IMG/VR virus record: IMGVR_UViG_3300042360_000330
Source: a virus
Taxonomy: Duplodnaviria > Heunggongvirae > Uroviricota > Caudoviricetes
Reading direction: 5' to 3' (one strand)
DNA: 64,000 nucleotides
Below the pieces are notes generated by a model. It searched no databases. It was given only the letters and a program-made list of their open reading frames with translations, and was not told the origin of the DNA. How positions within the stretch are numbered: the stretch's first letter is position 1; each line of letters starts with the position of its first letter. Positions 11,681-28,641 of the stretch are shown here, piece by piece. A program made the translations under genes and the position numbers.

Positions 11681-11902
11681 ATGAACCAAAAAGAATTAAA
11701 CATGAATGTATCTTTACAAGATACTACACCTATTACTTGTGATGAATGTGGTCATGAAGTGTTTATAGAAGGCGTTATACTGCGTCAAGTATCAAAATTC
11801 CTAACAGGTACTGCACAAAATGCTTTAATGCCTATACCTGTATTTACTTGCGCTAAATGTGGACATGTAAATGAACATTTTATGCCTAAAGATAAAGAAT
11901 AA
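11681..11902 (+). CDS. zinc-ribbon protein
   Basis: 73 aa, two CxxC pairs (CDECGH...CAKCGH). Confidence 0.5.
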   Translation: MNQKELNMNVSLQDTTPITCDECGHEVFIEGVILRQVSKFLTGTAQNALMPIPVFTCAKCGHVNEHFMPKDKE

Positions 11903-12354
11903 TGACAGTTTGGGATTGGTTAAAACAAGTTACGTATGTAAGGGAACCTTGGGATAATTTTAGTGAAGAAGATAAAGAAAGTTTCAATGTCTATATGCTT
12001 CATAAGGTTATTTCAATGCATGAACCTTACATTGAATTAGCAAATTATTTACAAAAGTTCTGGTTATTAACTCCAAAACAAGTATATGAAGTATACTGTA
12101 GTTATTTACCTAAAACAGCTGTATATGCTAAATATATTAAATCAAATCAATCAAAACCGAATCAAGACTTAGTTAATATATTAGCTAATTATTATCAATT
12201 ATCTACAAGAGAGGTAAAATCCTATCTACATTTATTAGATGAAAATCAAATTAAAGATATTCTTAATAGTAGAGGAATAAATGAGGAAGAAATTCAAAAA
12301 TTACTAGGTTATGAAAAAAGCACCAAAAAATCTAAAACCTCTACTAGAGCATAA
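11902..12354 (+). CDS. hypothetical protein
   Basis: 150 aa ORF, start overlaps upstream stop (TAATG). Confidence 0.5.
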   Translation: MTVWDWLKQVTYVREPWDNFSEEDKESFNVYMLHKVISMHEPYIELANYLQKFWLLTPKQVYEVYCSYLPKTAVYAKYIKSNQSKPNQDLVNILANYYQLSTREVKSYLHLLDENQIKDILNSRGINEEEIQKLLGYEKSTKKSKTSTRA

Positions 12355-13252
12355 AGCTGAAGAAATTAATTGGGAAACAGATAAAATTGTATCTTATTCT
12401 CAATTTTCAACTTGGAAGCAATGCCCTCACAAATGGAAACTACAGAGTGTAGATAAATTAAAGCAATCTCCAAATATGCATTTAGTGTTTGGAAATGCTA
12501 TACATACTACAATTCAACATTATTTAAAAACAATGTTTGAACAAAGTGCTACAGCCGCTGATAGAGAAGACATGATTCAATTATTCGAAGCATCTCTTCG
12601 CTCAGAATATAAAAAAAGTGTAGAGCAAAATAACAATATTCATTTCTCCAATGCTGAAGAACTAAATGAGTTTTATGAAGATGGAGAAGCTATATTAGAT
12701 TATTTTAAAAAGAAAAGAGGTAAATATTTCTCTAAACGAAATACATATCTTGTAGGTGTTGAATTTCCCTTATCTTTATCTCCTCATGAAGACTATCCTA
12801 ATGTAAAGTTTAAAGGATTTATAGATTTAATATTCTATAATGAAAATACAGAAACATTACAGATTTATGATATCAAAACATCTACTAGAGGATGGAAAGA
12901 TAAAGAAAAAAAAGATGATACTAAAGTTTCTCAAATATTACTTTATAAAGAGTACTTTAGTCGTTTATTTAACTGGGATGTAGATAAAATAGAAGTTGAA
13001 TTCTTTATTGTAAAAAGAAAAATTTGGGAAGAAAGTGAATACATTATTCCTCGAATCCAAGAATTCATACCAGCATCAGGTAAAATAAAACGATCAAAAA
13101 GTATAAATGAATTTCGTTTATTTATAGAAGATTGTTTTAATAAAGAAGGAAAACCATTAGTTAAAGAATTTACAAAAATACCAAGTCCTTTATGTAATTG
13201 GTGTCAATTCAATGATGAACCTTCTTTATGTAATAAGATTAATCTTTCATAG
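12311..13252 (+). CDS. PD-(D/E)XK nuclease, Cas4/RecB-like exonuclease with Fe-S cysteine cluster
   Basis: 313 aa; N-terminal Cys (WKQCPHKW), GFIDLIFYN...QIYDIKTS (D...ExK core), C-terminal CNWCQF...SLCNK triad (1+3 Cys pattern of Cas4/AddB nucleases). Confidence 0.65.
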   Translation: MKKAPKNLKPLLEHKAEEINWETDKIVSYSQFSTWKQCPHKWKLQSVDKLKQSPNMHLVFGNAIHTTIQHYLKTMFEQSATAADREDMIQLFEASLRSEYKKSVEQNNNIHFSNAEELNEFYEDGEAILDYFKKKRGKYFSKRNTYLVGVEFPLSLSPHEDYPNVKFKGFIDLIFYNENTETLQIYDIKTSTRGWKDKEKKDDTKVSQILLYKEYFSRLFNWDVDKIEVEFFIVKRKIWEESEYIIPRIQEFIPASGKIKRSKSINEFRLFIEDCFNKEGKPLVKEFTKIPSPLCNWCQFNDEPSLCNKINLS

Positions 13253-13507: not shown

Positions 13508-14950
13508 ATGAAAAAACATTACATCCCTCAGGAGCAACGAAAAAAAATCCTTATTCTATCTGATGACATCAGAACAACATCCGGGATTGCTACTATGACA
13601 AGAGAAATGGTTTTAGGAACATGTCACCATTTTAATTGGGTAAATTTAGGAGCAACAATTAAAAACCCAGATGAAGGTAAAAAAATCGACTTAAGTGGAG
13701 ATTCAAACAAATTTAACGGTATAACGGATGCTAGTGTTTTCCTTTACCCATCATCAGGATATGGTACTATTGAAAGAGTAAGAGAATTACTTAAAGTAGA
13801 AAAACCAGATGCAATAATGCTATTTACCGATCCTCGTTATTGGGAATGGTTATGGATACATGAAAGAGAAATTCGTTCTCAAGTTCCAATCTTATATCTT
13901 AATATTTGGGATTCATTACCTTATCCAATATATAATAGAGGATATTATGATTCATGTGACTTATTGATGGCAATTTCTAAACAAACTGAAAATATAAACA
14001 GAGTTGTATTAGGAGAAAAAGCTAAAAATAAAGTAATTACTTATGTTCCTCATGGTATAAATGAAGATGTTTTCTTCCCTATCGATGAAAAACATGAAAA
14101 ATGGGATGAACTACAACAATTTAAAAAACAATTATTTAATGGTAAAGAATATGAATTTACATTAATGTTTAACTCAAGAAACATTAGACGTAAATCATTC
14201 CCAGATACATTATTAGCTTGGAAAATGTTTGTAGATGGATTACCTGAAGATAAAAAAGATAAAGTAGCATTTATTGCTCATACTCAACCTGTAGATGAAA
14301 ATGGTACTGATTTAAATGCTGTTATTGAAATGATTTGGGGTAAAACACCACCAAACGTATTCATTACTGGTTTAAATAGATTCGTACCGGAACAAATGAA
14401 CTTATTATACAACTGCTCAGACGCAGGTATATTAATATCTTCAAATGAAGGATGGGGATTATCTTTAACAGAAGCAATGATGTGTGGTAAACCTATTATT
14501 GCTAATGTAACGGGAGGTATGCAAGACCAAATGAGATTCGAAGACGAAAATGGCGAGTGGATTCAGTTTACAGAAGAATTTGGTTCTAATCATTTTGGAA
14601 AATATAAAAAACATGGTGAATGGGCATTTCCTGTATTCCCTAGCAACATGAGTTTAATTGGTTCCGTACCAACACCTTATATATTTGATGATAGAGCAGA
14701 TTTTAGAGATGCTGCTGATCAAATTAAAGTACTCTATAATTTAGGGAAAGAAGAAAGAACAAATAAAGGAAAAGCGGCTAGAAAATGGGTAATGTCTGAT
14801 GAAGCTATGATGACTTCTAAAAATATGTCTATCAATGTTATAAACTCTATTAATAAAACTTTAGAAACATTTACACCAAGACAGTCTTACGACTTTATCC
14901 AAATCGATGAATTACCAGCAAAACAAAACAAACATATAATTTCGTTATGA
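13508..14950 (+). CDS. glycosyltransferase family 4
   Basis: 480 aa; GT-B C-terminal EX7E motif SSNEGWGLSLTEAMMCGKPIIA. Confidence 0.7.
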   Translation: MKKHYIPQEQRKKILILSDDIRTTSGIATMTREMVLGTCHHFNWVNLGATIKNPDEGKKIDLSGDSNKFNGITDASVFLYPSSGYGTIERVRELLKVEKPDAIMLFTDPRYWEWLWIHEREIRSQVPILYLNIWDSLPYPIYNRGYYDSCDLLMAISKQTENINRVVLGEKAKNKVITYVPHGINEDVFFPIDEKHEKWDELQQFKKQLFNGKEYEFTLMFNSRNIRRKSFPDTLLAWKMFVDGLPEDKKDKVAFIAHTQPVDENGTDLNAVIEMIWGKTPPNVFITGLNRFVPEQMNLLYNCSDAGILISSNEGWGLSLTEAMMCGKPIIANVTGGMQDQMRFEDENGEWIQFTEEFGSNHFGKYKKHGEWAFPVFPSNMSLIGSVPTPYIFDDRADFRDAADQIKVLYNLGKEERTNKGKAARKWVMSDEAMMTSKNMSINVINSINKTLETFTPRQSYDFIQIDELPAKQNKHIISL

Positions 14951-16248
14951 GTAAACCACTTTGCATAATTAGCAGTCCAGTAGACACTTTTAGTGGATAT
15001 GGAGCTAGATCACGTGATTTTATAAAATCTCTTATTAAAGCTAAAGGAGAAGAATGGGATATTAAATTACTATCTCAAAGATGGGGACAAACTCCATTTG
15101 GTGCTTTAAACCCAGACATCGAAGATGAAGCAGATTTAAAAAATCGCATCATAGGACAAATAACCATGCAACTTCCAGCAAGACCAGACGTATGGATTCA
15201 AATATCAGTACCAAATGAATTTCAACCTGTTGGAAGTAAATTTAATCTTGGAATAACAGCTGGTATTGAAACTACCATTTGTGATCCTTCATGGATAGAG
15301 GGTTTAAATAAAATGGATTTAAATTTAGTTTCATCTGAACATTCAAAACAAGTATTTCAATCTAGTAAATTTGAACAAAAAAATCAAGTAGGACAAGTTG
15401 TTAATATTATTGAATTAAAAAAACCTATAGAAATTCTATTTGAAGGAGCAGATTTAAATAAATACTTTAAAACAACTGAAAAAAATAATTTTAATGTTTG
15501 TAAAGATTTAGATTCTGTTAAAGAAAATTTTGCATTTTTATTTGTAGGCCATTGGTTACAAGGTGACTTTGGTGAAGATAGAAAAAATGTAGGTTATTTA
15601 ATCAAAGCATTTTTAGAAACTTTCAAAAATAAAAAAGTTCAACCTGCTTTAATTTTAAAAGTATCTCAAGGAGCTACCTCTATATTAGATAGAGATAGAA
15701 TTCTTAATAAAATAGATGATATTAGAAAAACTGTACATGGGGGTAAAAAAGCCAATATTTACGTAATACACGGCGATTTAACCGATGAAGAAATAAACGC
15801 CATATATAATCATCAAAAAGTAAAGGTAATGGTTAATTTAACAAAAGGAGAAGGATTTGGACGACCTTTACTAGAATTTAGTATAGTAGGAAAACCTATC
15901 ATTGCTTCTGGTTGGAGTGGTCATTTAGATTTCTTACCTTCAGAATTCGCAGGTTTAGTAGGAGGAACATTAAATAATGTTCACCAAAGTGCTCATGTTC
16001 AAAATACTATATTAATGGAAAGCCAATGGTTTAAACCAGATGATAATCAAGTAGGACATGCATTTACTGAAGTATTTGAAAAATATAAAGATTATCAAGA
16101 AAAAGCAAAACGTCTTGCTTTTAGAAATAAACAAAATTTCTCATTTGATAAGATGACTGAAAAATTAGGAGATTTATTAACACAATATGTTCCTGAATTT
16201 CCTAAGCACGTTGAAATTAAATTACCAAAATTAAAAAAGATAGAATAA
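14947..16248 (+). CDS. glycosyltransferase (GT4-like, GT-B fold)
   Basis: 433 aa; TKGEGFGRPLLEFSIVGKPIIAS motif; ATGA overlap with upstream gene. Confidence 0.6.
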   Translation: MSKPLCIISSPVDTFSGYGARSRDFIKSLIKAKGEEWDIKLLSQRWGQTPFGALNPDIEDEADLKNRIIGQITMQLPARPDVWIQISVPNEFQPVGSKFNLGITAGIETTICDPSWIEGLNKMDLNLVSSEHSKQVFQSSKFEQKNQVGQVVNIIELKKPIEILFEGADLNKYFKTTEKNNFNVCKDLDSVKENFAFLFVGHWLQGDFGEDRKNVGYLIKAFLETFKNKKVQPALILKVSQGATSILDRDRILNKIDDIRKTVHGGKKANIYVIHGDLTDEEINAIYNHQKVKVMVNLTKGEGFGRPLLEFSIVGKPIIASGWSGHLDFLPSEFAGLVGGTLNNVHQSAHVQNTILMESQWFKPDDNQVGHAFTEVFEKYKDYQEKAKRLAFRNKQNFSFDKMTEKLGDLLTQYVPEFPKHVEIKLPKLKKIE

Positions 16249-16249
16249 C

Positions 16250-16681
16250 ATGACTGATAATTTAGTAAAATGTCCTCATTGTGAAGCTGAAATGTGTTAT
16301 GAGTACCACAACCCACATTACATCCAATGGATGTGTTTTAATTGTGGGTATGGTAGCACATCACATATGGTTAAAGATAGTGACTTTGTAAAATCATCTA
16401 AAGAAGTATTACCTGAATTAATTAAAGATTTGGAGTTTACTGATGAAAACGACTTTGTATGGTACCCAAGTACTATTAATGTACCTGAAAAGGGTATATT
16501 GTTCCCTAATGGGAATAACAAAGATAATTGGATGTGGGCTGTAGCTCCATTAACTCTAATTAAAAAAGAAGAAAAAGCCCGTTTTCCTAAAAAACAAACT
16601 CATAAAGTAGATTTAAATAACATGCAATATTTTCCTAAAGAAGAATTTGCTAGAGCAGTTACTACCTTAAACGAGTTGTAA
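16250..16681 (+). CDS. zinc-ribbon domain protein
   Basis: 143 aa; CPHCEAEM...CFNCGYG N-terminal zinc ribbon. Confidence 0.5.
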   Translation: MTDNLVKCPHCEAEMCYEYHNPHYIQWMCFNCGYGSTSHMVKDSDFVKSSKEVLPELIKDLEFTDENDFVWYPSTINVPEKGILFPNGNNKDNWMWAVAPLTLIKKEEKARFPKKQTHKVDLNNMQYFPKEEFARAVTTLNEL

Positions 16682-16683
16682 AA

Positions 16684-17301
16684 ATGAAAATTAGTTATGC
16701 TATAACAGTTTGTAATGAATTGGAGGAAATTAAACGTTTAGTTTCTTTCCTCCTTTCAAACAAACGAAAAGAAGATGAGATAGTAATCTTATTTGATGAA
16801 AAAAATGGAACCGATGAAGTGTTCGATTACATAGAATCTCAAGTTTACGGTTGTGAAGTCTTTTGTGAAAAATTCGAAGGACACTTCGCAGACTGGAAAA
16901 ATCTACTTACATCACATTGTGAAGGAGATTATATCTTCCAAATCGATGCTGATGAAATCCCAAATTTAACCTTAACCGAACATCTCCCAGAAATACTTGA
17001 AATGAATCAAGGAGTAGATGTTTTATTAGTCCCTAGAGTAAATACTGTAGAAGGACTAACTCAAGAACATATACAAAAATGGGGATGGGTAGTAGATAAT
17101 CAAGGATGGGTTAATTACCCTGATTTTCAATGGAGAATCTATAAAAACACGCCAGACATTAAATGGATAAACAAAGTACATGAAAGGTTAATAGGATATA
17201 AAACTATATCAAATTTACCTCAAATGGAAGCTTGTTCTTTATATCATCCAAAGACAATTGAAAGACAAGAAAAACAAAACGATTATTATGAAACGTTATG
17301 A
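16684..17301 (+). CDS. glycosyltransferase family 2
   Basis: 205 aa; GT-A N-terminus SYAITVCNELEEI..., DxD-like QIDADEIP. Confidence 0.6.
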   Translation: MKISYAITVCNELEEIKRLVSFLLSNKRKEDEIVILFDEKNGTDEVFDYIESQVYGCEVFCEKFEGHFADWKNLLTSHCEGDYIFQIDADEIPNLTLTEHLPEILEMNQGVDVLLVPRVNTVEGLTQEHIQKWGWVVDNQGWVNYPDFQWRIYKNTPDIKWINKVHERLIGYKTISNLPQMEACSLYHPKTIERQEKQNDYYETL

Positions 17302-17900
17302 AAATAGTACAAATAGGTTCTAATGATGGAGATGATAGTGTTAGACAATTTATTATTGAAAATCAAAGTAATATTGATTTAGTTGTATTGGTTGAACCAA
17401 TTCCATTTATTTTAGATAAACTTAAAGAAAACTATAAAGATTTTAATAACGTTTTTATTGAAAATATAGCTATATCTGATAGTGAATCTAAAAAATTTAC
17501 ATTATATTATGAAGAAGAAAGTAATTATGAGCTTAGTTCTTTTAAAAAACAACATTTAATAGATTGTAAATGCATCCCCGAAAAAATTAAATCTATAGAT
17601 GTAGATTGTTTAACTATAAATCAACTTTTTGAAAAATACAGTATAGATACATTAGATTATCTTTATATAGACACAGAAGGTTTAGATGTTTATATTATAA
17701 ATTCTATCGATTTTAATAAATTTAAAATTAAAAACCTAATATTTGAAATAACTCACACCGATGGAATTAATACCGATGGTACTCCAAAAATAGGTACTAA
17801 CTACACAAAAATAACAGAATATTTAACTAAATTAAAATACAACCTATCCCAGATAGATGGGATAAGTATAAAAGCAACATTACATGAAAATAATTTATAG
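17298..17900 (+). CDS. FkbM-family methyltransferase
   Basis: 200 aa; QIGSNDGDD and YIDTEGLDVYII resemble FkbM family GANxGD / iDvEGxE motifs. Confidence 0.5.
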   Translation: MKIVQIGSNDGDDSVRQFIIENQSNIDLVVLVEPIPFILDKLKENYKDFNNVFIENIAISDSESKKFTLYYEEESNYELSSFKKQHLIDCKCIPEKIKSIDVDCLTINQLFEKYSIDTLDYLYIDTEGLDVYIINSIDFNKFKIKNLIFEITHTDGINTDGTPKIGTNYTKITEYLTKLKYNLSQIDGISIKATLHENNL

Positions 17901-18579
17901 AACATCGGATGCTGGGTATGTAAAAGTAAAACCTTCATATGTTAATAATGAAGCTTGTTTAAAAAATGCTGTTGATAAGTTTCCTTTATCTGAATGTGAC
18001 TGGATTGTCATAGCTGATAATGTATCTAAAGAAACAGATTTAATAATTCAAAAATATGTGCCTAAAGATAATATAAAATATGTTTCTGTGGGTCATGGTG
18101 CCGGTACTTTTAATTTAGCTTTAGATATAGCGTTAACTTATGATGATGATGAATGTGTTTATTTCCTAGAAAATGATTATCTTCATAGAGAAAATTCATA
18201 CAAAGCATTAAAAGAAGGTTTGAATTTGGGATCAGCTTTTGTATCTTTATACGATCATCCTGACAAATATATGGAACCTGATAAAGGATATAACCCATAT
18301 TGTGAAGGAGGTGCTGAAGATACAAGAGTGTATTTAACACATTCATGTCATTGGAAGATAACAAATTCAACTACTATGACGTTTGCTTCAAAAGTAAACA
18401 CATTAAGAAGAACAGAACAAATATTAAGAAAACATACATCAGAAATACACCCGTATGATTTTGCTATGTTTATAGAATTAAGAGAACAAAATGAACTATT
18501 AATAACACCAATACCAGGTTATTCAACACATGGAGAAACACTTTGGTTATGTCCATTAATAGATTGGAGTAAAGTATAA
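17884..18579 (+). CDS. hypothetical protein (possible GT-A glycosyltransferase)
   Basis: 231 aa ORF in the glycan cluster; no firm motif. Confidence 0.45.
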   Translation: MKIIYRTSDAGYVKVKPSYVNNEACLKNAVDKFPLSECDWIVIADNVSKETDLIIQKYVPKDNIKYVSVGHGAGTFNLALDIALTYDDDECVYFLENDYLHRENSYKALKEGLNLGSAFVSLYDHPDKYMEPDKGYNPYCEGGAEDTRVYLTHSCHWKITNSTTMTFASKVNTLRRTEQILRKHTSEIHPYDFAMFIELREQNELLITPIPGYSTHGETLWLCPLIDWSKV

Positions 18580-18589
18580 AATAAAATAT

Positions 18590-19876
18590 ATGATAAAATT
18601 AGAAGACATTCAACAATTAGTAGGTAATCATTTACCACCTTATTTACTTAATAGCAAACCATTTACACCTGGAGAAAGTACAGTATGGTACTCAGGTCCA
18701 TATTGGGATAATAGAGAAATTGAAGCAGCTTTAGACACATTTTTAAATGGAGCTTGGGTAACAACAGGAGCTAAAGTAAATAGATTTGAAGCTAAATTTG
18801 GCAAGAAATTCAAAGTTAAGCATTCTCATATGGTTAACTCAGGAAGTTCAGCTAATTTAGTAATGATTGCTGCTTTAAAAGCAAGATACAAATGGACTGA
18901 TCAAAGTGAAATTATAGTGTCCCCAGTAGGATTTGCTACAACAGTATCAGTAATTGCTCAAAACAAACTTGTCCCTTCATTTGTAGATATAGAATGGGAT
19001 ACTTTAAATTTTGACTTAGATAAATTAGAAGAAAAAATCAATAAAAACACTAAAGCAATATTTGTATCTCCAGTATTAGGAAATCCACCTGATTTTGATA
19101 AATTAGTAGCAATAGCTGAAAAACATAATTTATTATTAATTGGTGATAATTGTGATAGTTTAGGTTCTAAATGGGGTGAAAAATATTTGAATGAATATTA
19201 TGTAGCATTTTCAAACTCATTTTACCCATCACATCATATATCAACAGGTGAAGGAGGAATGGTGTGTACTAATGACCCTGAATTAAAAAAATTAATCATG
19301 AGTTTTTCATGGTGGGGTAGAGCTTGTTACTGTGTAGGTGCTGCTAATTTATTACAACAAGGTAGTTGTGGATGTAGATTTGGAAGACACTTAGAAGGAT
19401 ATGATAATGATATAGATCATAAGTATATATTTGATAATATGGGTTATAACCTTAAACCTTTGGATTTACAAGGAGCTATTGGTATGGTTCAATTAGACAA
19501 AATAGATGAAATTGACGCTAATAGAAAACGTTCCAAAGAACGTCTAGATAAAATATTCACAGAAAATATTCCAGGTTTACGTTCAATTCAAACTTTAGAC
19601 AAAGCAGAAACAAATTGGTTTGGTACACCTTTTATTTGTGAAGAACCAGGTTTAAAACATAGATTAGTACAATATCTAGAAGAAAACAAAATACAAACCA
19701 GAAATTACTTTGCAGGAAATATATTATTACACCCTGGATATAAACACTTAGGAAATTATCATAATTATCCTGAAGCTAATAAAGTATTAGATAAAGTATT
19801 CTTTATTGGAGCTGCTCCACATTATACTGAGGATATATTCGAATATGTTGAAGATGTAATAAAAAAATTCAAATAA
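18590..19876 (+). CDS. DegT/DnrJ/EryC1-family PLP/PMP enzyme, 3-dehydratase type (ColD/E1-like)
   Basis: 428 aa; VNSGSSANLVMIAAL and DNCDSLGS family motifs. Active-site Lys replaced by His (FYPSHHISTGEGGMV), as in GDP-4-keto-6-deoxymannose 3-dehydratase ColD and CDP-sugar E1. Cys cluster ACYC...SCGC. Confidence 0.7.
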   Translation: MIKLEDIQQLVGNHLPPYLLNSKPFTPGESTVWYSGPYWDNREIEAALDTFLNGAWVTTGAKVNRFEAKFGKKFKVKHSHMVNSGSSANLVMIAALKARYKWTDQSEIIVSPVGFATTVSVIAQNKLVPSFVDIEWDTLNFDLDKLEEKINKNTKAIFVSPVLGNPPDFDKLVAIAEKHNLLLIGDNCDSLGSKWGEKYLNEYYVAFSNSFYPSHHISTGEGGMVCTNDPELKKLIMSFSWWGRACYCVGAANLLQQGSCGCRFGRHLEGYDNDIDHKYIFDNMGYNLKPLDLQGAIGMVQLDKIDEIDANRKRSKERLDKIFTENIPGLRSIQTLDKAETNWFGTPFICEEPGLKHRLVQYLEENKIQTRNYFAGNILLHPGYKHLGNYHNYPEANKVLDKVFFIGAAPHYTEDIFEYVEDVIKKFK

Positions 19877-19877
19877 A

Positions 19878-20609
19878 ATGAGAATAGTTGTATTAGGAGA
19901 TGGATTATTAGGTTCTGAAATAGTAAAACAAACAGGATGGGATTATATATCTCGAAAGAAAGATAATTTTGATATAAATAGTTCTAAAGATTATTCTTCA
20001 TTTTTTATGCAAGATTATGATGGTGTTGCATTTTGGAAAAAATATGATATCATAATCAATTGTATAGCTAATACTGATACTTATTCTCCTAACAAAGAAG
20101 AAATATACAATACAAATTACAAATCAGTAGCATTACTTTCAGACTTTTGCAAAAAAGAACAAATTAAACTAGTACACATATCAACTGACTATGTCTATGC
20201 TGGTTCTGTATCTAATGCTACTGAGGAGGATTTGCCTGTTCCTTCAAATAATTGGTATAGTTACTACAAACTACTTGCTGATGAATATATATCTTTAACT
20301 AATCCTAACCATTTAATATGTCGATGTTTATTTAAAGAAAAACCATTTCAATTTGAATATGCTTGGACCGATCAAATAGGTAATTTTGATTACGTAGATG
20401 TAATAGCAGATTTAATAATTAAGTTGGTAAACGCAAAAGCTGTTGGTATATTTAACGTAGGAACAGAGTTAAAAACAATATTCCAATTAGCAGAACAAAC
20501 TAAAGGAGTTAAAGAATCACTTAAACCAGAACATGTACCTGGTGATGTTTCAACAAATACTTCTAAACTTTATAAATTTTTAAATGAAAACACTAGTAAC
20601 AATTCTTAA
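19878..20609 (+). CDS. NAD(P)-dependent sugar nucleotide reductase (RmlD-like)
   Basis: 243 aa; Rossmann GDGLLGS, HISTDYVY and YxxxK (NWYSYYKLLADE) matching the dTDP-4-dehydrorhamnose reductase pattern. Confidence 0.55.
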   Translation: MRIVVLGDGLLGSEIVKQTGWDYISRKKDNFDINSSKDYSSFFMQDYDGVAFWKKYDIIINCIANTDTYSPNKEEIYNTNYKSVALLSDFCKKEQIKLVHISTDYVYAGSVSNATEEDLPVPSNNWYSYYKLLADEYISLTNPNHLICRCLFKEKPFQFEYAWTDQIGNFDYVDVIADLIIKLVNAKAVGIFNVGTELKTIFQLAEQTKGVKESLKPEHVPGDVSTNTSKLYKFLNENTSNNS

Positions 20610-21318
20610 TCACAATCTTCCTGAATATACTAATTTCTTATATGATGAATTAAAGAAATACCAGACAGATACTCATGATATTTTAATATTCGATAATGCT
20701 AGTTCACCTGAAGGTAAACCTAAAGTTACACATCTAGAAACAGAAGAAAACTGTTACTTTGGAGGAGCTATGAATTTAGCTTTCCAATATGTTTTAGAAA
20801 ATCCTGAATATGATTCTTTATTATTTTTAAGTAATGATCTTATTATACATGGTGATAATTTTGTAGATATACTACGAAAAGAAATGATAGAACAAGACTA
20901 CACAGTATTGTCTCCTTCTGTATTTCAGGTTAGATTAGAAACAGATTTATGGCGTCAAATGCGTAACTATGGAACTAAAAATGTAAGACAAGTACCATGG
21001 GTTGATTTTATGTCTCCATTAATCCATAGAAGATTAATTGAAGAAATTCAACAATTTAGTATGGATTTAGTATATGGGTGGGGATTAGATATATACTCAG
21101 GTATAGTTTGTGAAAAAAAGGATTGGAAAATAGGAATTGTAGATTATATTGCTGTACCTCATTTAGTAGCTAAAACAACTAAAGAGAAAAAAGCAGATAT
21201 TACAATAGAACAATATTGTGAATATGCTTCTAATGGTATGAATCAATTTTTTATGAACAATAATTTAGTACAAGAACAACAAAAAATGATGCATTTAGCT
21301 CAAAGTTATGAAGTATAA
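20584..21318 (+). CDS. glycosyltransferase family 2-like
   Basis: 244 aa; ILIFDNASSPEG GT-A signature. Confidence 0.5.
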   Translation: MKTLVTILNHNLPEYTNFLYDELKKYQTDTHDILIFDNASSPEGKPKVTHLETEENCYFGGAMNLAFQYVLENPEYDSLLFLSNDLIIHGDNFVDILRKEMIEQDYTVLSPSVFQVRLETDLWRQMRNYGTKNVRQVPWVDFMSPLIHRRLIEEIQQFSMDLVYGWGLDIYSGIVCEKKDWKIGIVDYIAVPHLVAKTTKEKKADITIEQYCEYASNGMNQFFMNNNLVQEQQKMMHLAQSYEV

Positions 21319-22183
21319 TACATTAGCAACGTTACATATAATGTGGTATGAAAGTCAAATGATTAATGAAACTCTTGACTCTATACAACAAGCAATATCG
21401 AATGCTCAACATCCTGTACAACTGATTCTATGTTTGAATTCACAAACATATATCGAGAAACCAGATGAAGGTTTTATCCCAGAACAAATGTTTGATGTGT
21501 TTTTAAATCATCCTGTATTAAAAGATGCAATTATACTTAGAAAAACAGATAATGACCCTTTTTACAATATTGGAGATTGGACCAGAGAAATTTATGGACC
21601 CGGATATGAAGCTAAGTATACTGTTTGGTTAGAAAGTGATTGTTTAGTACCTGAAGATTATTTCTTTCTTTTAGAAAATATTAATCTAGATCATCCTCAT
21701 CTTATATCGTTAGCTAATAGAAAAATGTGGGATTCTACTTGGGATGAAGTAGAACACCCTTACATACAACAAATTCCAAGAACAGGACCTCCTGAAGAAC
21801 CTCAAAGAAACACTCCTGAACCTTTTGGAGTAGGACATTATATAAATCAAAAAGATTTAAATAAATTTAACAAACAGTATGAACCTGTTTTAATTAAATT
21901 ATCTCAACCTAAAGTAGATGGCGCTATGGCTGCTGTATCTAATAATTTTCCTTATCCGTTTATAACAGAAGGTGTTCATTTGGGTGGTCATGATTATTAC
22001 ATGGAATTGTTTATGAAAAAGAATAATATTCCTCAATACCATATGCCTACTAGATTAAAAGGACACAATTGTTCACATCCTAAAAAACGATTAGGAACAA
22101 GTACACCAAGAGGAGGAGAAGTATATAAAAAATACGAAAAACAATGTAAAGAACTTATTCATAAATTAATATTTAATACTTAA
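21308..22183 (+). CDS. hypothetical protein
   Basis: 291 aa ORF within the glycan cluster. Confidence 0.5.
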   Translation: MKYNTLATLHIMWYESQMINETLDSIQQAISNAQHPVQLILCLNSQTYIEKPDEGFIPEQMFDVFLNHPVLKDAIILRKTDNDPFYNIGDWTREIYGPGYEAKYTVWLESDCLVPEDYFFLLENINLDHPHLISLANRKMWDSTWDEVEHPYIQQIPRTGPPEEPQRNTPEPFGVGHYINQKDLNKFNKQYEPVLIKLSQPKVDGAMAAVSNNFPYPFITEGVHLGGHDYYMELFMKKNNIPQYHMPTRLKGHNCSHPKKRLGTSTPRGGEVYKKYEKQCKELIHKLIFNT

Positions 22184-22185
22184 AA

Positions 22186-23112
22186 ATGGACAAAAATTCA
22201 AAAATACTAATAACCGGATCTACAGGAATGGTAGGATCCGCTGTTGTTAGAATGTTAAAAGAATTAGGATATAATAACTTACTAACACCTCCTAGAAAAG
22301 AAGTAGATCTAGTAAATCCTCAAGATGTACAAGCATACTTCGCATACCATAAACCAGAATATGTTTTCTTAATAGCTGCTAAAGTAGGAGGAATACATGC
22401 TAATATGACTTACAGAGCTGATTTTATTTTTGATAATTTAATGATGCAAAGTAATACTATAAATGCTTGTAAAGAAAATAATGTTAAAAAAGTATTATTT
22501 GTTAGTAGTGGTTGTGTTTATCCAAAATATGCTGAAAATCCTATTAGTGAAGATGCAATGTTAACAGGATTATTAGAACCTTCTAATGAACATTACTCAA
22601 TAGCTAAAATAGCAGGTATAAAAATGTGTGAAGCTTATAATATGCAATATGGTTTAGATTATGCTGTTGTAATACCAAATAACATTTATGGTCCTGGAGA
22701 CAATTATCACCCTGAAAATTCTCATGTTATGGCTTCTTTAATTAGAAAATTTCATGAAGCTAAGCAAAACGGAACTGATGTTGAGATATGGGGAAGTGGA
22801 AAACAAATGAGAGAGTTTGTCTATGTAGAAGATGTTGCAAAAGCATGTGTCTCTTTAATAGATAGTTCGTACATTGGGGCTTACAATTGCAGTAGCGAAC
22901 ATGAAATTACTATAAAAGATTTAGCTGAATTAGTAGCTGAAATTTTAGAATTTAAAGGTAATATTGTGTATAATACTGATAAGCCTGAAGGACACCCAAG
23001 AAAAGGATTCTCATGTGCTAAATTAAAACAAACAGGATGGGATGCCTCAACATCATTGAGAGAGGGTATTCAATTAGCATATGAATGGTATAAACAAAAT
23101 TTAAATAAATAA
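22186..23112 (+). CDS. fcl: GDP-L-fucose synthase (GDP-4-keto-6-deoxy-D-mannose 3,5-epimerase/4-reductase) or the homologous colitose synthase ColC
   Basis: 308 aa; KILITGSTGMVGSAV, AAKVGGI, YSIAKIAG (YxxxK), NSHV... colinear with E. coli Fcl. Confidence 0.85.
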   Translation: MDKNSKILITGSTGMVGSAVVRMLKELGYNNLLTPPRKEVDLVNPQDVQAYFAYHKPEYVFLIAAKVGGIHANMTYRADFIFDNLMMQSNTINACKENNVKKVLFVSSGCVYPKYAENPISEDAMLTGLLEPSNEHYSIAKIAGIKMCEAYNMQYGLDYAVVIPNNIYGPGDNYHPENSHVMASLIRKFHEAKQNGTDVEIWGSGKQMREFVYVEDVAKACVSLIDSSYIGAYNCSSEHEITIKDLAELVAEILEFKGNIVYNTDKPEGHPRKGFSCAKLKQTGWDASTSLREGIQLAYEWYKQNLNK

Positions 23113-23113
23113 T

Positions 23114-23989
23114 ATGATAACTTACGCATTATCAACATTTAACACATTAAACTATTTAAAACTAGCAGTACACTCGGCAAGAGAAAATGGATACTATAAA
23201 GATGCTCCATTTGTAATACATGCTGAAAATTGTACTGACGGTACTGATGAATGGTTAGAAGAAAATAAAGAACGATATAATTTAAAAATTTACATTGAAA
23301 AAAATGAAACACCTCGAGGAATAGGTGGTGGAATGAATTTCTGTGCTAATAAAGTTAAAACTAAATATATTGGATTTTTATCTTCAGATTTTTACATGGC
23401 TAAAAATTGGGATAAAGAATTAGTAGATATATGTGAAAATAACCCACAAGACAAAATATGGTCATTTAGCTACAGAGTAGAACCAGATATATTTAATGAT
23501 CCTAACAGTAGACCAGGAGTAATAAAAGTTCCAGTTGATGCATTTGGTGAATTTCATCATAACTTTAATGGTGATTTCTTTACAGAATGGAGTAATGAAT
23601 TCGCTGCTTCAAATGATATAATATTTGATGTTCCTCAAGGAGTAAGTGGTGTCATTAAAAAAGAAGATTGGGATTATATTGGTGGAAACGACGATAGATT
23701 TGCACCAATGTATTGGGAAGATGCCGATATCTTTATTAGAATGTTGAATGAAGGATTTAAATTTAAATTAACTAGCAAATCAGTATTATATCATTTTGCT
23801 TCTAGAACAAGTAGATTTCCTGATGACAATTTAAATCAAAGACCTGCTCATTTAGCAGCATATGAACAAAGAAGTTTACAACGTTTTATAGAAAAATACG
23901 GAAAATTACCATCACATGGACCTTTAGGACAATACTTTCCTATGCCTATCGCAGATGGTTCACCAAACAGAATAAATCAAAATAACTAA
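23114..23989 (+). CDS. putative glycosyltransferase (GT-A)
   Basis: 291 aa; acidic WEDADIF motif; position in cluster. Confidence 0.4.
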   Translation: MITYALSTFNTLNYLKLAVHSARENGYYKDAPFVIHAENCTDGTDEWLEENKERYNLKIYIEKNETPRGIGGGMNFCANKVKTKYIGFLSSDFYMAKNWDKELVDICENNPQDKIWSFSYRVEPDIFNDPNSRPGVIKVPVDAFGEFHHNFNGDFFTEWSNEFAASNDIIFDVPQGVSGVIKKEDWDYIGGNDDRFAPMYWEDADIFIRMLNEGFKFKLTSKSVLYHFASRTSRFPDDNLNQRPAHLAAYEQRSLQRFIEKYGKLPSHGPLGQYFPMPIADGSPNRINQNN

Positions 23990-23990
23990 T

Positions 23991-24956
23991 ATGAGTAAAG
24001 TTGCATTAATTACAGGCATAAATGGAATGGATGGAAGTCATTTAGCCGACTTTCTATTAAAAAAAGGATACACAGTATATGGTTTAGAAAGACGTAGCTC
24101 TGGAGAAAACAGAAATAATGTTGCCCATATTGAAAATGAAATTAACTTTATTAAAGGTGATTTAACAGATCAAAATTCACTATTAAGAGCATTAAAAGAA
24201 TCTCAACCTGATGAAGTATATAATCTAGCCGCTCAATCATTTGTTGGTGAAAGTTGGAATACACCTGAACAAACAAGCGATGTAACCGGATTAGGAGTAT
24301 TAAGAATGTTAGAAGCAATTCGCGAATATGGTTCGGACAAAATTAAATTCTACCAAGCATCATCTTCAGAAATGTTTGGACGTATGGTAGAAAATCCTGC
24401 TAGAGAAACTACTCCATTTTACCCACGTTCACCTTATGGTGTTGCTAAATTATATGGACATTGGATAACTAAAAATTACAGAGAGTCTTACGACATGTTT
24501 GCTTGTTCTGGAATATTATTCAATCATGAATCCGAAAGACGTGGTTTAGAATTTGTAACTAGAAAAATAACTAATGGTGTTGCTAAAATTCATTTAGGAT
24601 TAGCAGATCATATATCATTAGGTAACCTAGATGCAAAACGTGATTGGGGTTATGCTCCTGATTATGTTGAGGCAATGTGGCTAATGTTACAACAAGATAA
24701 TCCTGAAGATTATGTTATAGCAACTGGTGACACATGGTCTATTAGAGATTTTTTAGATGAAGCATTCTTAGTAGTAGGAATAGCAGATTGGGAACCATAC
24801 ATTAAAATTGATCCTAAATTTATGAGACCTGCTGAAGTAGATATATTAATTGGAGATTGTACTAAAGCAAAAACAGAATTAAATTGGAATCCAAAAACCA
24901 GTTTTAAAGATATGGTACACATAATGGTTAACAACGATATAAAATTACTTAAATGA
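23991..24956 (+). CDS. gmd: GDP-mannose 4,6-dehydratase
   Basis: 321 aa; MSKVALITGINGMDGSHLADFLL, YNLAAQSFVGESW, FYQASSSEMFG, SPYGVAKLYGHWIT; near-colinear with E. coli Gmd. Confidence 0.9.
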   Translation: MSKVALITGINGMDGSHLADFLLKKGYTVYGLERRSSGENRNNVAHIENEINFIKGDLTDQNSLLRALKESQPDEVYNLAAQSFVGESWNTPEQTSDVTGLGVLRMLEAIREYGSDKIKFYQASSSEMFGRMVENPARETTPFYPRSPYGVAKLYGHWITKNYRESYDMFACSGILFNHESERRGLEFVTRKITNGVAKIHLGLADHISLGNLDAKRDWGYAPDYVEAMWLMLQQDNPEDYVIATGDTWSIRDFLDEAFLVVGIADWEPYIKIDPKFMRPAEVDILIGDCTKAKTELNWNPKTSFKDMVHIMVNNDIKLLK

Positions 24957-25993
24957 TATCATTAATTATACCAGCAACAACATCTAATCAACATTACACT
25001 GATAATTTAGTTCGTAATATTAGAGATCTTTATCCTAATGAAGATGAAGTTGAAATTATAGTTGAAGTAAACGACAATGTTACTCTAGGAGTAAATCATA
25101 ATAATGCTGTTGAAAAAGCTAATGGTGAAAAAATCATTATCCTTCATAATGACATGGTGTTATCTAAAGGTTTCATTGAAACTATGGATAAACACATCGT
25201 TAAAGGCAGAATAACGACGTATACTCGCATAGAACCCCCTATATACACAGATATATACCCTGGAAAAGTCATCGCAGATTTTGGCTCAGATTTAGAAACA
25301 TTTAATAAAGAAAAATTTAATACCTTTAGTTTAGAAGAAAGCTTAGTTGATGGTGGTTCACAACTATTCTTTGGTTGTATGAAAGAAGATTACATTGGTA
25401 TTGATGGATATACTTTTAAAATGTTCTGTGAGGATGATGATTTTCATTTACGTTGTAAATTAGCAGGATTTGAACAAAAAGTATCATCAGCTTATGCTTA
25501 TCATTTTGTAAGTAAGACATCCAGAACTACAAAAGATTATCAACAAATTGAAAAGAATTCAAATCGTAACTTTATTAGAAAATGGGGTTCTAGAAACCCA
25601 GTTGCAAAATATAATATTGCTTATGTCGTTCATAACTGTCAATTAACAGCATTAGAAACATTAGAATTATTCTGTGATAGAATATATGTAACTGAAAATT
25701 TCAATGTTGGTAGAATGTGGGATTATGTTGAATTAGAACAAGAAAATACAACATTTGATTTATCAAAACGAGTATTAACTATAAAAAATAATGACCCAAT
25801 ATTAGAAAATGATATTGTAGTTGAATTCGATTTATTAAAGTTCTCTCCTGAATCATTTAATATTCTTCAACAATTACCTCAAATACTTAAAGAAAGTGGT
25901 GAACCGGGTACATTTGAATTAGATATATTTAAGATTACTATTGCTTCAATGCCTGAATACCAAAATGATTTAATATTTATATCAAAACAATAA
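24953..25993 (+). CDS. glycosyltransferase family 2
   Basis: 346 aa; LIIPATT N-terminus, HNDMVL, DxD-like CEDDDFHLRC. Confidence 0.55.
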   Translation: MISLIIPATTSNQHYTDNLVRNIRDLYPNEDEVEIIVEVNDNVTLGVNHNNAVEKANGEKIIILHNDMVLSKGFIETMDKHIVKGRITTYTRIEPPIYTDIYPGKVIADFGSDLETFNKEKFNTFSLEESLVDGGSQLFFGCMKEDYIGIDGYTFKMFCEDDDFHLRCKLAGFEQKVSSAYAYHFVSKTSRTTKDYQQIEKNSNRNFIRKWGSRNPVAKYNIAYVVHNCQLTALETLELFCDRIYVTENFNVGRMWDYVELEQENTTFDLSKRVLTIKNNDPILENDIVVEFDLLKFSPESFNILQQLPQILKESGEPGTFELDIFKITIASMPEYQNDLIFISKQ

Positions 25994-28557: not shown

Positions 28558-28641
28558 GGAAGACATCCGGCTGGATCAGGAGCGACTCTTGAAAAGTCGT
28601 AGCAGGTAACACTGTTGTGGGTTCGAGTCCCACGTCTTCCT
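28558..28641 (+). tRNA. tRNA-Ser(TGA)
   Basis: Acceptor GGAAGAC/GTCTTCC, anticodon arm CGACT-cttgaaa-AGTCG, long variable arm, T-arm GGGTTCGAGTCCCAC. Confidence 0.75.

What the first reader, a model, noticed from the sequence alone, without database searches (positions are those of the whole stretch)
18590..19876. DegT-family enzyme with His replacing the catalytic Lys plus a Cys cluster: a 3-dehydratase for 3,6-dideoxyhexose (colitose-type) synthesis
The conserved PLP-binding Lys of DegT/aminotransferases is replaced by His (FYPSHHISTGEGG). That substitution is the hallmark of ColD (GDP-4-keto-6-deoxymannose 3-dehydratase) and CDP-sugar E1 dehydrases. The protein also carries ACYC...SCGC cysteines reminiscent of the E1 [2Fe-2S] site. 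It sits next to Gmd and an Fcl/ColC-like reductase, so the phage may make GDP-colitose or a related 3,6-dideoxy sugar. That would be unusual for a virus.
Basis: partly seen in the sequence, partly recalled or inferred. Interest (0 to 1): 0.6.

Follow-up and report, generated by a model that had tools for sequence, protein, structure and literature searches.

The report
Phage E1-type iron-sulfur sugar 3-dehydrase
This phage gene encodes a sugar-deoxygenating enzyme of the iron-sulfur "E1" type (not the ColD/colitose type), paired with a reductase to make a 3,6-dideoxy sugar; the enzyme family is known and its relatives are common in aquatic phage genomes, so the gene is a solid but fairly ordinary find.

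Summary
ORF 18590-19876 (+, 428 aa) is a DegT-fold protein. His215 sits at the Schiff-base lysine position. Four cysteines (C188, C246, C248, C260) match the [2Fe-2S] ligands of Yersinia E1.

The protein is E1/RfbH/SpnQ-type, not ColD-type. It has the full-length E1 architecture with the Cys loop that ColD lacks, and E1 is the best sequence and fold match.

It belongs to a phage-specific clade found on more than 576 IMG/VR contigs and in several cultured cyanophages. The clade is sister to the cellular CDP-pathway enzymes and has a 4-residue longer Cys loop.

The constant partner is a reductase directly downstream, here an RmlD-like 243-aa SDR at 19878-20609. Gmd and Fcl are not constant partners. 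No E3-type reductase or ferredoxin accompanies the gene, as with SpnQ.

The nucleotide carrier is unresolved. Gmd is the only 4,6-dehydratase seen in this phage. The sister sub-clade sits in RmlB-RmlA-E1like-SDR cassettes (dTDP), and one huge phage carries both a true ColD and this E1-type pair. GDP-colitose is therefore unlikely.

Verdict: new member of a known kind, modest interest.

The parts
18590..19876 (+). E1/RfbH/SpnQ-type PMP- and [2Fe-2S]-dependent NDP-4-keto-6-deoxyhexose 3-dehydrase gene (428 aa)
   Evidence: ORF. Pfam DegT 1.7e-71. NCBIfam RfbH NF011936 scores 354.8 bits, below its cutoff of 423. PDB E1 3bcx 6.4e-73 over the full length. Foldseek top hits are E1, TM 0.78.
19232..19234 (+). 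Codon of His215, which replaces the Schiff-base Lys (equivalent to E1 His220 and ColD His188)
   Evidence: Alignment to 3bcx, 3bb8 (H220K), 2gms and 3b8x (H188N). Invariant in 120 of 120 family members and in 85 of 86 proteins.
19151..19153 (+). Codon of Cys188, equivalent to E1 Cys193 (first Fe-S ligand of the C-X57-C-X1-C-Xn-C motif)
   Evidence: Invariant in the family.
19325..19369 (+). Cys loop C246-Y-C248-(11 residues)-C260, equivalent to E1 C251, C253 and C261 but with X11 instead of X7 spacing. C262 (19373-19375) is variable.
   Evidence: X11 occurs only in the phage clade plus L011; cellular proteins have X7 (74), X10 (5) or X9 (1).
19878..20609 (+). Short RmlD-family SDR (243 aa), the inferred 4-ketoreductase acting on the dehydrase product. 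It starts 1 nt after the dehydrase stop codon.
   Evidence: Pfam RmlD_sub_bind 2.6e-17. PDB 2ggs 2.4e-11. GDGLLG, STD and YSYYK motifs present. Orthologue directly downstream of the E1-like gene in L003, L004, L006 and other viral loci.
20584..21318 (+). GT2/DUF707-like putative glycosyltransferase overlapping the SDR by 26 nt. Candidate user of the dideoxy sugar.
   Evidence: Pfam DUF707 1.2e-5 and GT2 1.6e-3. In L003 the SDR is fused to a GT2 domain.
22186..23112 (+). GDP-L-fucose synthase-like SDR (Fcl). Same operon; a link to the dehydrase is not established.
   Evidence: NF047922 393 bits, below its cutoff of 500. E. coli GMER 1bws 6.1e-91, 47% identity, SSGC/YSIAK/NSH motifs present.
23991..24956 (+). 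GDP-mannose 4,6-dehydratase (Gmd). It is the only 4,6-dehydratase found in about 83 kb of this phage.
   Evidence: TIGR01472 443.9 bits, above its cutoff of 415. No RmlB or CDP-glucose dehydratase found.
13508..25993 (+). Co-directional glycan-synthesis island that contains the gene. It has 14 ORFs with gaps from -26 to +10 nt: GT4 x2, a Zn-ribbon ORF, GT2s, an FkbM methyltransferase, the dehydrase, the SDR, Fcl and Gmd.
   Evidence: The same island lies on at least 10 metagenome contigs that carry the identical protein.

Best explanation
The ORF encodes a pyridoxamine-phosphate (PMP) and [2Fe-2S] dependent nucleotide-sugar 3-dehydrase of the E1 (RfbH/DdhC/AscC) / SpnQ type. It belongs to a clade found almost only in phages.

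Inferred mechanism, by homology to E1 and SpnQ:
1. PMP condenses with the C4 keto group of an NDP-4-keto-6-deoxyhexose.
2. His215, in place of the usual Lys, removes the C4' proton and the C3 hydroxyl leaves, giving a PMP-bound 3,4-hexoseen.
3. Two single electrons arrive through a [2Fe-2S] cluster held by Cys188, Cys246, Cys248 and Cys260.
4. NDP-4-keto-3,6-dideoxyhexose is released with PMP intact.

No E3-type partner is encoded. Electrons would therefore come from host ferredoxin or flavodoxin systems, as shown for SpnQ. The translationally coupled RmlD-like SDR (19878-20609) then reduces C4 to give an NDP-3,6-dideoxyhexose. The neighbouring glycosyltransferases of the island would use that sugar.

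Shown here: fold, family, the His and Cys positions, the conserved dehydrase-reductase pairing, and the absence of E3, RfbF and RmlA/B in this phage.

Inferred: cofactors, chemistry, electron source and product.

The nucleotide carrier is unresolved. My estimates are about 0.55 for a pyrimidine nucleotide (dTDP, or CDP) 4-keto-6-deoxy-D-glucose taken from the host pool, about 0.2-0.25 for GDP-4-keto-6-deoxy-D-mannose from the phage Gmd, and the rest for something else.
For: - Family assignment. E1 is the best solved relative over the full length (6.4e-73) and the best fold match. RfbH is the best NCBIfam model.
- Catalytic positions. The His and the four Cys ligand equivalents are invariant in 120 family members. 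The same pattern (CHHCCC) occurs in 84 of 86 E1-like proteins.
- Reductase partner. An SDR lies within 600 nt downstream in 57 of 84 viral loci, of which 70 have at least 1 kb of downstream sequence. The SDR is fused to a GT2 domain in L003.
- No dedicated reductase. No FNR/E3-like or ferredoxin-like gene occurs in the window or in 84 viral loci. The SpnQ precedent for E3-independent reduction is described in PMC8987622.
- Pyrimidine-nucleotide preference. All characterised Fe-S-type 3-dehydrases use CDP or dTDP gluco-type sugars (PMC8987622). Of the cellular loci, 57 of 80 carry RfbF. The sister viral sub-clade has RmlB-RmlA-E1like-SDR cassettes, with both Rml genes above equivalog cutoffs. 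L003 has a real ColD in addition to this pair. Only 13 positions are fixed differently between the two viral sub-clades, and none converge on ColD. The partner SDR is RmlD-family.
Against: - No biochemical data exist for any member of the phage clade.
- The RfbH equivalog cutoff is not reached (354.8 vs 423 bits).
- The loop between two Fe-S ligands is 4 residues longer than in E1.
- AlphaFold models the His and Cys segments with pLDDT below 50, so cluster geometry could not be checked.
- About 83 kb of this phage has no RmlA/B or RfbF/G. In the window's own sub-clade the only 4,6-dehydratase ever seen nearby is Gmd (7 loci). In L101, L095 and L112 it lies in the contiguous string Gmd-Fcl-like-DUF3431-E1like-SDR. 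This favours a GDP substrate.
Confidence: 0.72

Rival explanations
1. The enzyme acts on GDP-4-keto-6-deoxy-D-mannose made by the phage Gmd. The product is converted to GDP-L-colitose by the Fcl/ColC-like protein, or to another GDP-3,6-dideoxyhexose by the adjacent SDR.
For: - Gmd (TIGR01472 above cutoff) and an Fcl-like gene lie in the same operon.
- Gmd is the only 4,6-dehydratase in about 83 kb of this phage.
- In the 62-100% identity sub-clade only Gmd, never RmlB, occurs nearby (7 loci), and in three loci it is contiguous with the gene.
Against: - The protein is E1-type, not ColD-type. As far as the review PMC8987622 and my own knowledge go, no Fe-S-type 3-dehydrase is known to use a GDP-mannose-type sugar.
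- Gmd is absent from 77 of 84 viral loci.
- Five of the six other Gmd-carrying loci also have GT11 fucosyltransferase-family genes, which explain Gmd and Fcl on their own.
- All four cellular loci with Gmd near an E1-like gene also have RfbF.
- L003 carries a true ColD beside an Fcl-like gene as well as the E1-type/SDR pair, which would be redundant if both used the GDP sugar.
- The Fcl-like protein is 47% identical to E. coli GMER and carries no ColC-specific signal.
Confidence: 0.2
2. The protein works mainly as a C4 aminotransferase, as PHROGs and some GenBank records label it, or as SpnQ does in vitro without a reductase. It would then give an NDP-4-amino-4,6-dideoxyhexose.
For: - PHROGs phrog_3139 is labelled 'aminotransferase', and RN05-S annotates its homologue as a DegT aminotransferase.
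- SpnQ transaminates when PLP and glutamate are supplied without a reductase (PMC8987622).
- No reductase partner is encoded nearby.
Against: - The catalytic Lys is replaced by His in every member. The E1 H220K and ColD studies summarised in PMC8987622 tie Lys to transamination and His to dehydration.
- Strict conservation of the four Fe-S Cys has no role in a transaminase.
- A 4-ketoreductase directly downstream would have no substrate if C4 were aminated.
Confidence: 0.06
3. The gene is a decayed or non-functional acquisition from a bacterial O-antigen cluster.
For: It scores below the RfbH equivalog cutoff, and the canonical partners RfbF, RfbG and E3 are absent.
Against: - The ORF is intact, and the identical protein lies on at least 10 contigs from different samples.
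- Thousands of homologues are 72-99% identical with all catalytic positions invariant.
- The clade is monophyletic in phages and has a conserved partner gene.
Confidence: 0.02

Closest known systems
E1 (AscC/DdhC/RfbH), CDP-6-deoxy-L-threo-D-glycero-4-hexulose 3-dehydrase of Yersinia and Salmonella (PDB 3bcx)
   Same: - Full-length architecture, including the N-terminal extension.
- His at the Lys position.
- All four Cys ligand equivalents.
- Best sequence and fold match, at 37.5% identity.
   Different: - The loop between the third and fourth Cys is X11 rather than X7.
- It scores below the RfbH equivalog cutoff.
- No RfbF, RfbG or E3 (AscD) in the genome region.
- It belongs to a separate, phage-specific clade.
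- Its partner is an RmlD-like SDR.
SpnQ (dTDP-4-keto-2,6-dideoxy-D-glucose 3-dehydrase, spinosyn pathway) and related actinomycete enzymes
   Same: - Fe-S plus His type.
- No dedicated E3; SpnQ uses general ferredoxin or flavodoxin reductases (PMC8987622).
- The sister phage sub-clade sits in dTDP-sugar (RmlA/RmlB) cassettes.
   Different: - No SpnQ sequence was compared directly here. The nearest PDB proxy, 9wvy, matched at only 5.3e-35.
- The phage cassettes lack a 2,3-dehydratase, so the expected product is a 3,6-dideoxy rather than a 2,3,6-trideoxy sugar.
ColD (GDP-4-keto-6-deoxy-D-mannose 3-dehydratase, colitose pathway; PDB 2gms)
   Same: - DegT fold.
- His at the Schiff-base position.
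- 36% identity.
- Gmd and an Fcl-like gene are present in the same operon.
   Different: - ColD lacks the Cys loop and the N-terminal extension. It needs no reductant and regenerates PMP from glutamate.
- It is the outgroup in the tree.
- A true ColD orthologue exists separately in phage L003.
Homologues already deposited from phages: Synechococcus phages S-H68 (QBP05885.1, annotated CDP-4-dehydro-6-deoxy-D-glucose 3-dehydratase), S-B05, S-B43, RN05-S and RB11-B; uncultured phage LR756502
   Same: - Same clade, at 53-61% identity.
- Same X11 Cys loop.
- Embedded in glycosyltransferase-rich islands.
   Different: - The cyanophage islands carry RmlB, RmlC and a small cytidylyltransferase-like gene, and lack the SDR243 partner.
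- None has been characterised experimentally, as far as the literature searches show.

Membership tests
E1/RfbH-type PMP-[2Fe-2S] NDP-hexose 3-dehydrase | DegT/aspartate-aminotransferase fold, full-length E1 architecture | tested here: met
   Pfam 1.7e-71. E1 3bcx aligned 7-425 against 10-430. Foldseek TM 0.78 to 3bb8/3bcx, ranks 1-3.
E1/RfbH-type PMP-[2Fe-2S] NDP-hexose 3-dehydrase | His replaces the PLP Schiff-base Lys (E1 His220) | tested here: met
   His215 aligns to His220, which is Lys in the H220K entry 3bb8. Invariant in the family.
E1/RfbH-type PMP-[2Fe-2S] NDP-hexose 3-dehydrase | Four Cys ligands (E1 C193, C251, C253, C261) | tested here: met
   C188, C246, C248 and C260 align to them and are invariant in 120 of 120. 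The ligand identities in E1 come from my memory of Agnihotri et al. 2004 and agree with the 'four cysteines' described in PMC8987622.
E1/RfbH-type PMP-[2Fe-2S] NDP-hexose 3-dehydrase | Motif spacing C-X57-C-X1-C-X7-C | tested here: not met
   The spacing is C-X57-C-X1-C-X11-C. X11 is specific to the phage clade and L011.
E1/RfbH-type PMP-[2Fe-2S] NDP-hexose 3-dehydrase | Score above the NCBIfam RfbH equivalog cutoff | tested here: not met
   NF011936 scores 354.8 bits against a cutoff of 423.
E1/RfbH-type PMP-[2Fe-2S] NDP-hexose 3-dehydrase | CDP-glucose pathway context (RfbF, RfbG) and the E3 reductase | tested here: not met
   None found in the window, in about 83 kb of this phage, or in 84 viral loci. 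Among cellular loci, RfbF occurs in 57 of 80 and an FNR-like gene in 18 of 80.
E1/RfbH-type PMP-[2Fe-2S] NDP-hexose 3-dehydrase | Bound [2Fe-2S] cluster, PMP cofactor, reductant-dependent C3 deoxygenation | not testable with these tools
   This needs purified protein. The AlphaFold model has low confidence in both cofactor segments.
ColD (GDP-4-keto-6-deoxymannose 3-dehydratase) | His at the Lys position | tested here: met
   His215 aligns to ColD His188.
ColD (GDP-4-keto-6-deoxymannose 3-dehydratase) | About 390 aa, no Fe-S Cys loop, closest to ColD sequences | tested here: not met
   The protein is 428 aa and has the Cys loop. ColD has gaps at C246/C248 and Thr at C260. ColD scores 171 bits against 249 for E1.
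ColD (GDP-4-keto-6-deoxymannose 3-dehydratase) | Operon with Gmd and ColC | tested here: inconclusive
   Gmd and an Fcl-like gene are in the operon but are not conserved partners, occurring in 7 and 10 of 84 loci. No ColC-specific model was available.
SpnQ-type (dTDP-sugar, E3-independent) 3-dehydrase | Fe-S motif plus His, and no dedicated E3 | tested here: met
SpnQ-type (dTDP-sugar, E3-independent) 3-dehydrase | dTDP-sugar pathway context | tested here: inconclusive
   RmlB-RmlA abut the gene in the 57-61% identity sub-clade but are absent from this phage's 83 kb.
DegT-family sugar aminotransferases | Catalytic Lys forming the internal aldimine | tested here: not met
   His is at that position in all members.

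The most novel reading that the evidence does not exclude
The phage clade couples E1-type radical/Fe-S chemistry to ColD's substrate, GDP-4-keto-6-deoxy-D-mannose from the phage Gmd. With the RmlD-like reductase it would make a GDP-3,6-dideoxyhexose, for example the D-arabino/tyvelose configuration on GDP, or colitose via Fcl. That nucleotide-sugar route has not been described, and the product would be used to decorate the virion or the infected cell surface.
Probability: 0.2. Interest if true: 0.55.

Novelty: new member of a known kind. Interest (0 to 1): 0.32.

Why it matters
3,6-Dideoxyhexoses are rare, immunodominant surface sugars. A large and abundant phage clade encodes the key deoxygenase together with its reductase, with more than 576 IMG/VR contigs and thousands of metagenome proteins. 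This implies that many aquatic phages make such sugars during infection, either for the host surface or for the virion.

Phage resources label these proteins 'aminotransferase' (PHROGs) or 'hypothetical', so the pathway is being overlooked.

The compact RmlB-RmlA-E1like-SDR cassettes in related phages, and the E3-less context here, offer a minimal system for studying how E1-type enzymes obtain electrons. The practical value lies in better annotation and in a clear set of experiments, not in new enzymology.

Tried and rejected
- **Primary papers.** I tried to read the E1 and ColD structure and mutagenesis papers (PMC2782820, PMC2515278, PMC2533848) for ligand and nucleotide-contact residues. 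None is held. The Cys ligand numbering therefore rests on memory plus the review PMC8987622.
- **Literature searches.** Searches for phage or virus 3-dehydrases, colitose or dideoxyhexose pathways found nothing relevant.
- **Megablast.** A search of the island against GenBank phages found no match.
- **AlphaFold model.** It was meant to test whether the four Cys cluster in space. The tool returns no coordinates, and both cofactor segments have pLDDT below 50, so it was useful only for the global fold.
- **Specificity-position analysis.** I compared the Gmd-linked and RmlA/B-linked sub-clades. Only 13 positions are fixed differently and there is no convergence on ColD, so the result is inconclusive.
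- **Search for an electron donor.** FNR/E3-like queries and ferredoxin motif scans found nothing in the window or in the viral loci. Zn-ribbon ORFs at 11681-11902 and 16250-16681 were considered as rubredoxin-like carriers and set aside for lack of evidence.
- **Genome walking.** I gained 9.3 kb upstream and 9.5 kb downstream. One look-up failed. The rest of the genome was not reached.
- **The 67-70 aa ORF.** It lies between the dehydrase and the SDR in L004 and L006. It has no Pfam hit and only one Cys in L004, and it is absent from the window.
Full report
**Observation**

The window holds an ATG-initiated ORF at 18590..19876 (+) of 428 aa. It matches Pfam DegT_DnrJ_EryC1 at 1.7e-71.

Against the PDB, the best relative is Yersinia E1 (CDP-6-deoxy-L-threo-D-glycero-4-hexulose 3-dehydrase, 3bcx). 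The match is 6.4e-73 and 249 bits, aligned over residues 7-425. E. coli ColD follows at 3.7e-49 and 171 bits, and ordinary sugar aminotransferases come after that.

The PDB also holds E1 H220K (FYPAKHI) and ColD H188N (FYSNHI). These show that the first His, His215 (codon 19232-19234), occupies the Schiff-base Lys position.

I rebuilt the E1 numbering from the alignment. It reproduces His220 and Cys193/251/253/261, the C-X57-C-X1-C-X7-C pattern. I recall this pattern from Agnihotri et al. 2004, and the review PMC8987622 describes 'four cysteines'. The target has Cys188, Cys246, Cys248 and Cys260 at those columns.

Among 120 metagenomic relatives (72-99% identical), these four Cys and both His are invariant.

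**E1-type, not ColD-type**

- ColD lacks the loop that carries C246, C248 and C260, and it lacks the N-terminal extension.
- RfbH is the best NCBIfam model, at 354.8 bits. This is below its equivalog cutoff of 423.
- An AlphaFold model (pLDDT 72, pTM 0.78) finds E1 entries at ranks 1-3 (E 6e-33, TM 0.78), ahead of ColD (8e-27, TM 0.74). The model is unreliable in the His segment (210-221) and the Cys loop (241-288). It says nothing about cluster geometry.
- Plain percent identity barely separates the two: 37.5% to E1 and 36.0% to ColD. The assignment rests on architecture, motif, bit score and phylogeny.

**Genome and island**

The window is a distant T4-like phage.
- Its family-B DNA polymerase is 37% identical to that of Microcystis phage Mel-JY01.
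- It also encodes a clamp loader, GroES/GroEL, ThyA and 24 tRNAs.
- The identical protein lies on at least 10 metagenome contigs with the same gene order.

The ORF sits in a co-directional block of 14 genes (13508-25993), with gaps from -26 to +10 nt. In order, the block contains two GT4s, a Zn-ribbon ORF, a GT2, an FkbM methyltransferase, an unknown ORF, the dehydrase, a 243-aa RmlD-like SDR, a DUF707/GT2-like ORF, an unknown ORF, an Fcl-like gene, a GT2, Gmd and another GT2-like ORF.

The gene that abuts the dehydrase is the SDR, with a 1-nt gap.
- Pfam RmlD_sub_bind matches at 2.6e-17.
- The best PDB match is the RmlD-like 2ggs at 2.4e-11.
- The GDGLLG, STD and YSYYK motifs are present.

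Gmd is bona fide: TIGR01472 scores 443.9 bits against a cutoff of 415. The Fcl-like protein is 47% identical to E. coli GDP-fucose synthetase and keeps the catalytic motifs.

**Relatives**

GenBank phages already hold homologues.
- Synechococcus phages S-H68, S-B05, S-B43, RN05-S and RB11-B are 53% identical. The S-H68 protein is annotated as CDP-4-dehydro-6-deoxy-D-glucose 3-dehydratase.
- The 642-kb uncultured phage LR756502 has a homologue at 61%.
- JGI's pipeline names the metagenomic family 'CDP-6-deoxy-D-xylo-4-hexulose-3-dehydrase'.
- IMG/VR holds more than 576 viral contigs with a relative.
- PHROGs files the protein under a generic 'aminotransferase' family.

In one-genome-per-species bacteria and archaea, identities plateau at 35-40%, the same distance as E1. 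Two sequences are closer: a Verrucomicrobiae MAG at 48% and a partial Bacteriovoracales hit at 55%.

A neighbour-joining tree puts all phage sequences plus the Verrucomicrobiae one in a single clade. That clade is sister to the cellular E1-like proteins, with ColD as outgroup. The clade shares an X11 loop between the third and fourth Cys. Cellular proteins have X7 (74), X10 (5) or X9 (1).

**Context statistics: cellular loci**

Around 80 cellular E1-like genes I found the following:
- Glucose-1-phosphate cytidylyltransferase RfbF in 57 loci (TIGR02623, 338 bits).
- SDRs in 63 loci.
- A ThDP enzyme in 29 loci.
- An FNR-like reductase in 18 loci.

All four cellular loci with a nearby Gmd also have RfbF. 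Gmd proximity alone therefore says little about the substrate.

**Context statistics: viral loci**

Around 84 viral loci I found the following:
- An SDR lies within 600 nt downstream in 57 loci, of which 70 have at least 1 kb of downstream sequence. Four SDR types occur, one of them the window's SDR243.
- RmlA and/or RmlB occur in 32 loci, only in the sub-clade 57-61% identical to the target. There RmlA abuts the dehydrase in a cassette RmlB-RmlA-E1like-SDR. TIGR01181 scores 391-459 bits against a cutoff of 365, and TIGR01207 scores 427.6 against 360.65.
- Gmd occurs in 7 loci and Fcl-like genes in 10, only in the target's own sub-clade (62-100%). In three loci the arrangement is the contiguous string Gmd-Fcl-like-DUF3431-E1like-SDR.
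- In 51 loci no 4,6-dehydratase is visible.
- Five of the six other Gmd-carrying loci also have GT11 fucosyltransferase-family genes. These give Gmd and Fcl a use that is independent of the dehydrase.

**The huge phage (L003)**

The RmlD-like SDR is fused to a GT2 glycosyltransferase directly after the E1-like gene. This links the product to a transferase. The same island also has a genuine ColD-type gene next to an Fcl-like gene: 1.2e-58 to ColD, an HH motif and no Cys loop. The E1-type pair is therefore unlikely to duplicate ColD's job.

**Electron donor**

No E3/FNR-like gene and no ferredoxin-type ORF occurs in the 64-kb window, in the extra 9.3 kb upstream and 9.5 kb downstream, or beside the gene in any viral locus. 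This parallels SpnQ, which uses general ferredoxin or flavodoxin reductase pairs (PMC8987622).

**Mechanism proposed**

By homology, PMP forms a Schiff base with the C4 keto group. His215 abstracts the C4' proton and the C3-OH leaves. The 3,4-hexoseen-PMP adduct is then reduced by two electrons passed through the [2Fe-2S] cluster from host redox proteins. The coupled RmlD-like SDR reduces C4, and the neighbouring glycosyltransferases use the NDP-3,6-dideoxyhexose.

Shown here are the family, the key residues, the conserved dehydrase-SDR pairing and the missing E3, RfbF and RmlA/B. The chemistry, cofactors, donor and product are inferred.

**Which nucleotide?**

Evidence for a pyrimidine nucleotide gluco-sugar (dTDP or CDP):
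- Every characterised Fe-S-type 3-dehydrase uses one.
- Cellular contexts carry RfbF.
- The sister sub-clade sits in RmlA/RmlB cassettes.
- The cyanophage islands carry RmlB and RmlC.
- A true ColD coexists with the pair in L003.
- The partner SDR is RmlD-family.
- Only 13 positions are fixed differently between the two viral sub-clades, and none converge on ColD.

Evidence for GDP-4-keto-6-deoxymannose:
- It is the only 4-keto-6-deoxy sugar this phage can make itself, within the 83 kb seen.
- In the target's sub-clade only Gmd ever appears nearby.

I put the GDP route at about 0.2-0.25 and the pyrimidine route at about 0.55. GDP-colitose specifically is less likely still.

**Novelty**

The enzyme kind is known, and automatic pipelines already give the gene an E1-type name. 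No paper in the searchable library treats the phage clade.

What is new is modest:
- A phage-specific clade with a longer Cys loop.
- A constant reductase partner.
- No E3.
- Variable upstream pathways.

I rate it a new member of a known kind, with interest about 0.3. The most novel reading still open is E1-type chemistry on a GDP-mannose-derived substrate.

Noticed in passing
L003 (LR756502.1 435120-456385): 1492-2418, 2422-3591, 9980-11281, 11269-12687: The 642-kb uncultured phage carries both a ColD-type dehydratase (389 aa, 1.2e-58 to E. coli ColD) beside an Fcl-like gene and the E1-type dehydrase followed by an RmlD-like SDR fused to a GT2 domain. That gives it two different 3-dehydrase systems in one phage, and it may have a real colitose pathway.
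   Followed up: partly
L149 1928-5910; L148 8116-12090; about 30 further IMG/VR loci (L131-L165): A second phage type holds a compact four-gene cassette, RmlB-RmlA-E1like-SDR, between a DnaB-like helicase and a DUF6267 gene. It looks like a self-contained dTDP-3,6-dideoxyhexose pathway.
   Followed up: partly
L160 955-2556 (also L156, L132 and two others): A tryptophan-halogenase-family flavoprotein (533 aa, Pfam 1e-106) is inserted between RmlA and the E1-like gene in five viral loci. Its role is unknown.
   Followed up: no
window 28558-32839: A cluster of 24 tRNA genes on the + strand in a GC-richer stretch (about 0.37-0.41 against about 0.30 elsewhere). HNH-like Cys-rich ORFs at 30277-30783 and 31491-32018 are interleaved with them.
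   Followed up: no
window 8205-8606, 8864-9154, 9163-10794: Phage-encoded HSP20, GroES (Cpn10) and GroEL (Cpn60) lie just upstream of the clamp-loader genes.
   Followed up: no
window 696-2381 and 2321-4732: A carbamoyltransferase (NodU/CmcH type) is followed by an 803-aa TylF-type O-methyltransferase fused to an HtrL/YibB domain. The phage glycan is therefore probably carbamoylated and methylated.
   Followed up: no
L173 2748-5328 and L174 544-3893 (sequence just upstream of the window): FolE (GTP cyclohydrolase I), PTPS/QueD, a radical-SAM QueE-like gene and a PRA-PH pyrophosphatase form a 7-deazaguanine (preQ0-type) pathway, suggesting DNA modification. Two PF11397 GlcNAc-type glycosyltransferases, a GH19 lysin and a holin lie alongside.
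   Followed up: no
window 16250-16681: A 143-aa ORF with an N-terminal four-Cys zinc ribbon (weak Lar-like hit) is conserved inside the sugar island in 15 viral loci. Its function is unknown.
   Followed up: no
L004 11290-11493; L006 11287-11499: A 67-70 aa ORF with no family match lies between the E1-like gene and the SDR in related phages. It is absent from the window, where the two genes are 1 nt apart.
   Followed up: partly
window 18590-19876 (annotation issue): PHROGs places this His-type dehydrase in phrog_3139 'aminotransferase', and several GenBank phage records call the homologue 'hypothetical' or 'DegT aminotransferase'. The clade is being systematically mislabelled.
   Followed up: yes
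L011 (Verrucomicrobiae MAG CAVYLE010000017.1) 9923-13084: This is the only cellular member of the phage-type (X11 loop) clade found. It sits in a polysaccharide cluster with Wzy and an acyltransferase, and is followed by split transketolase N and C subunits. It may mark the cellular origin of the phage clade, or a branched-sugar pathway.
   Followed up: partly
L004 3598-5473: A small ManC-type cupin (PF01050) is followed by a 514-aa protein with weak NTP-transferase (N-terminal) and APH-kinase (C-terminal) hits. This may be a sugar kinase/nucleotidyltransferase in the island of the 85%-identical relative.
   Followed up: no
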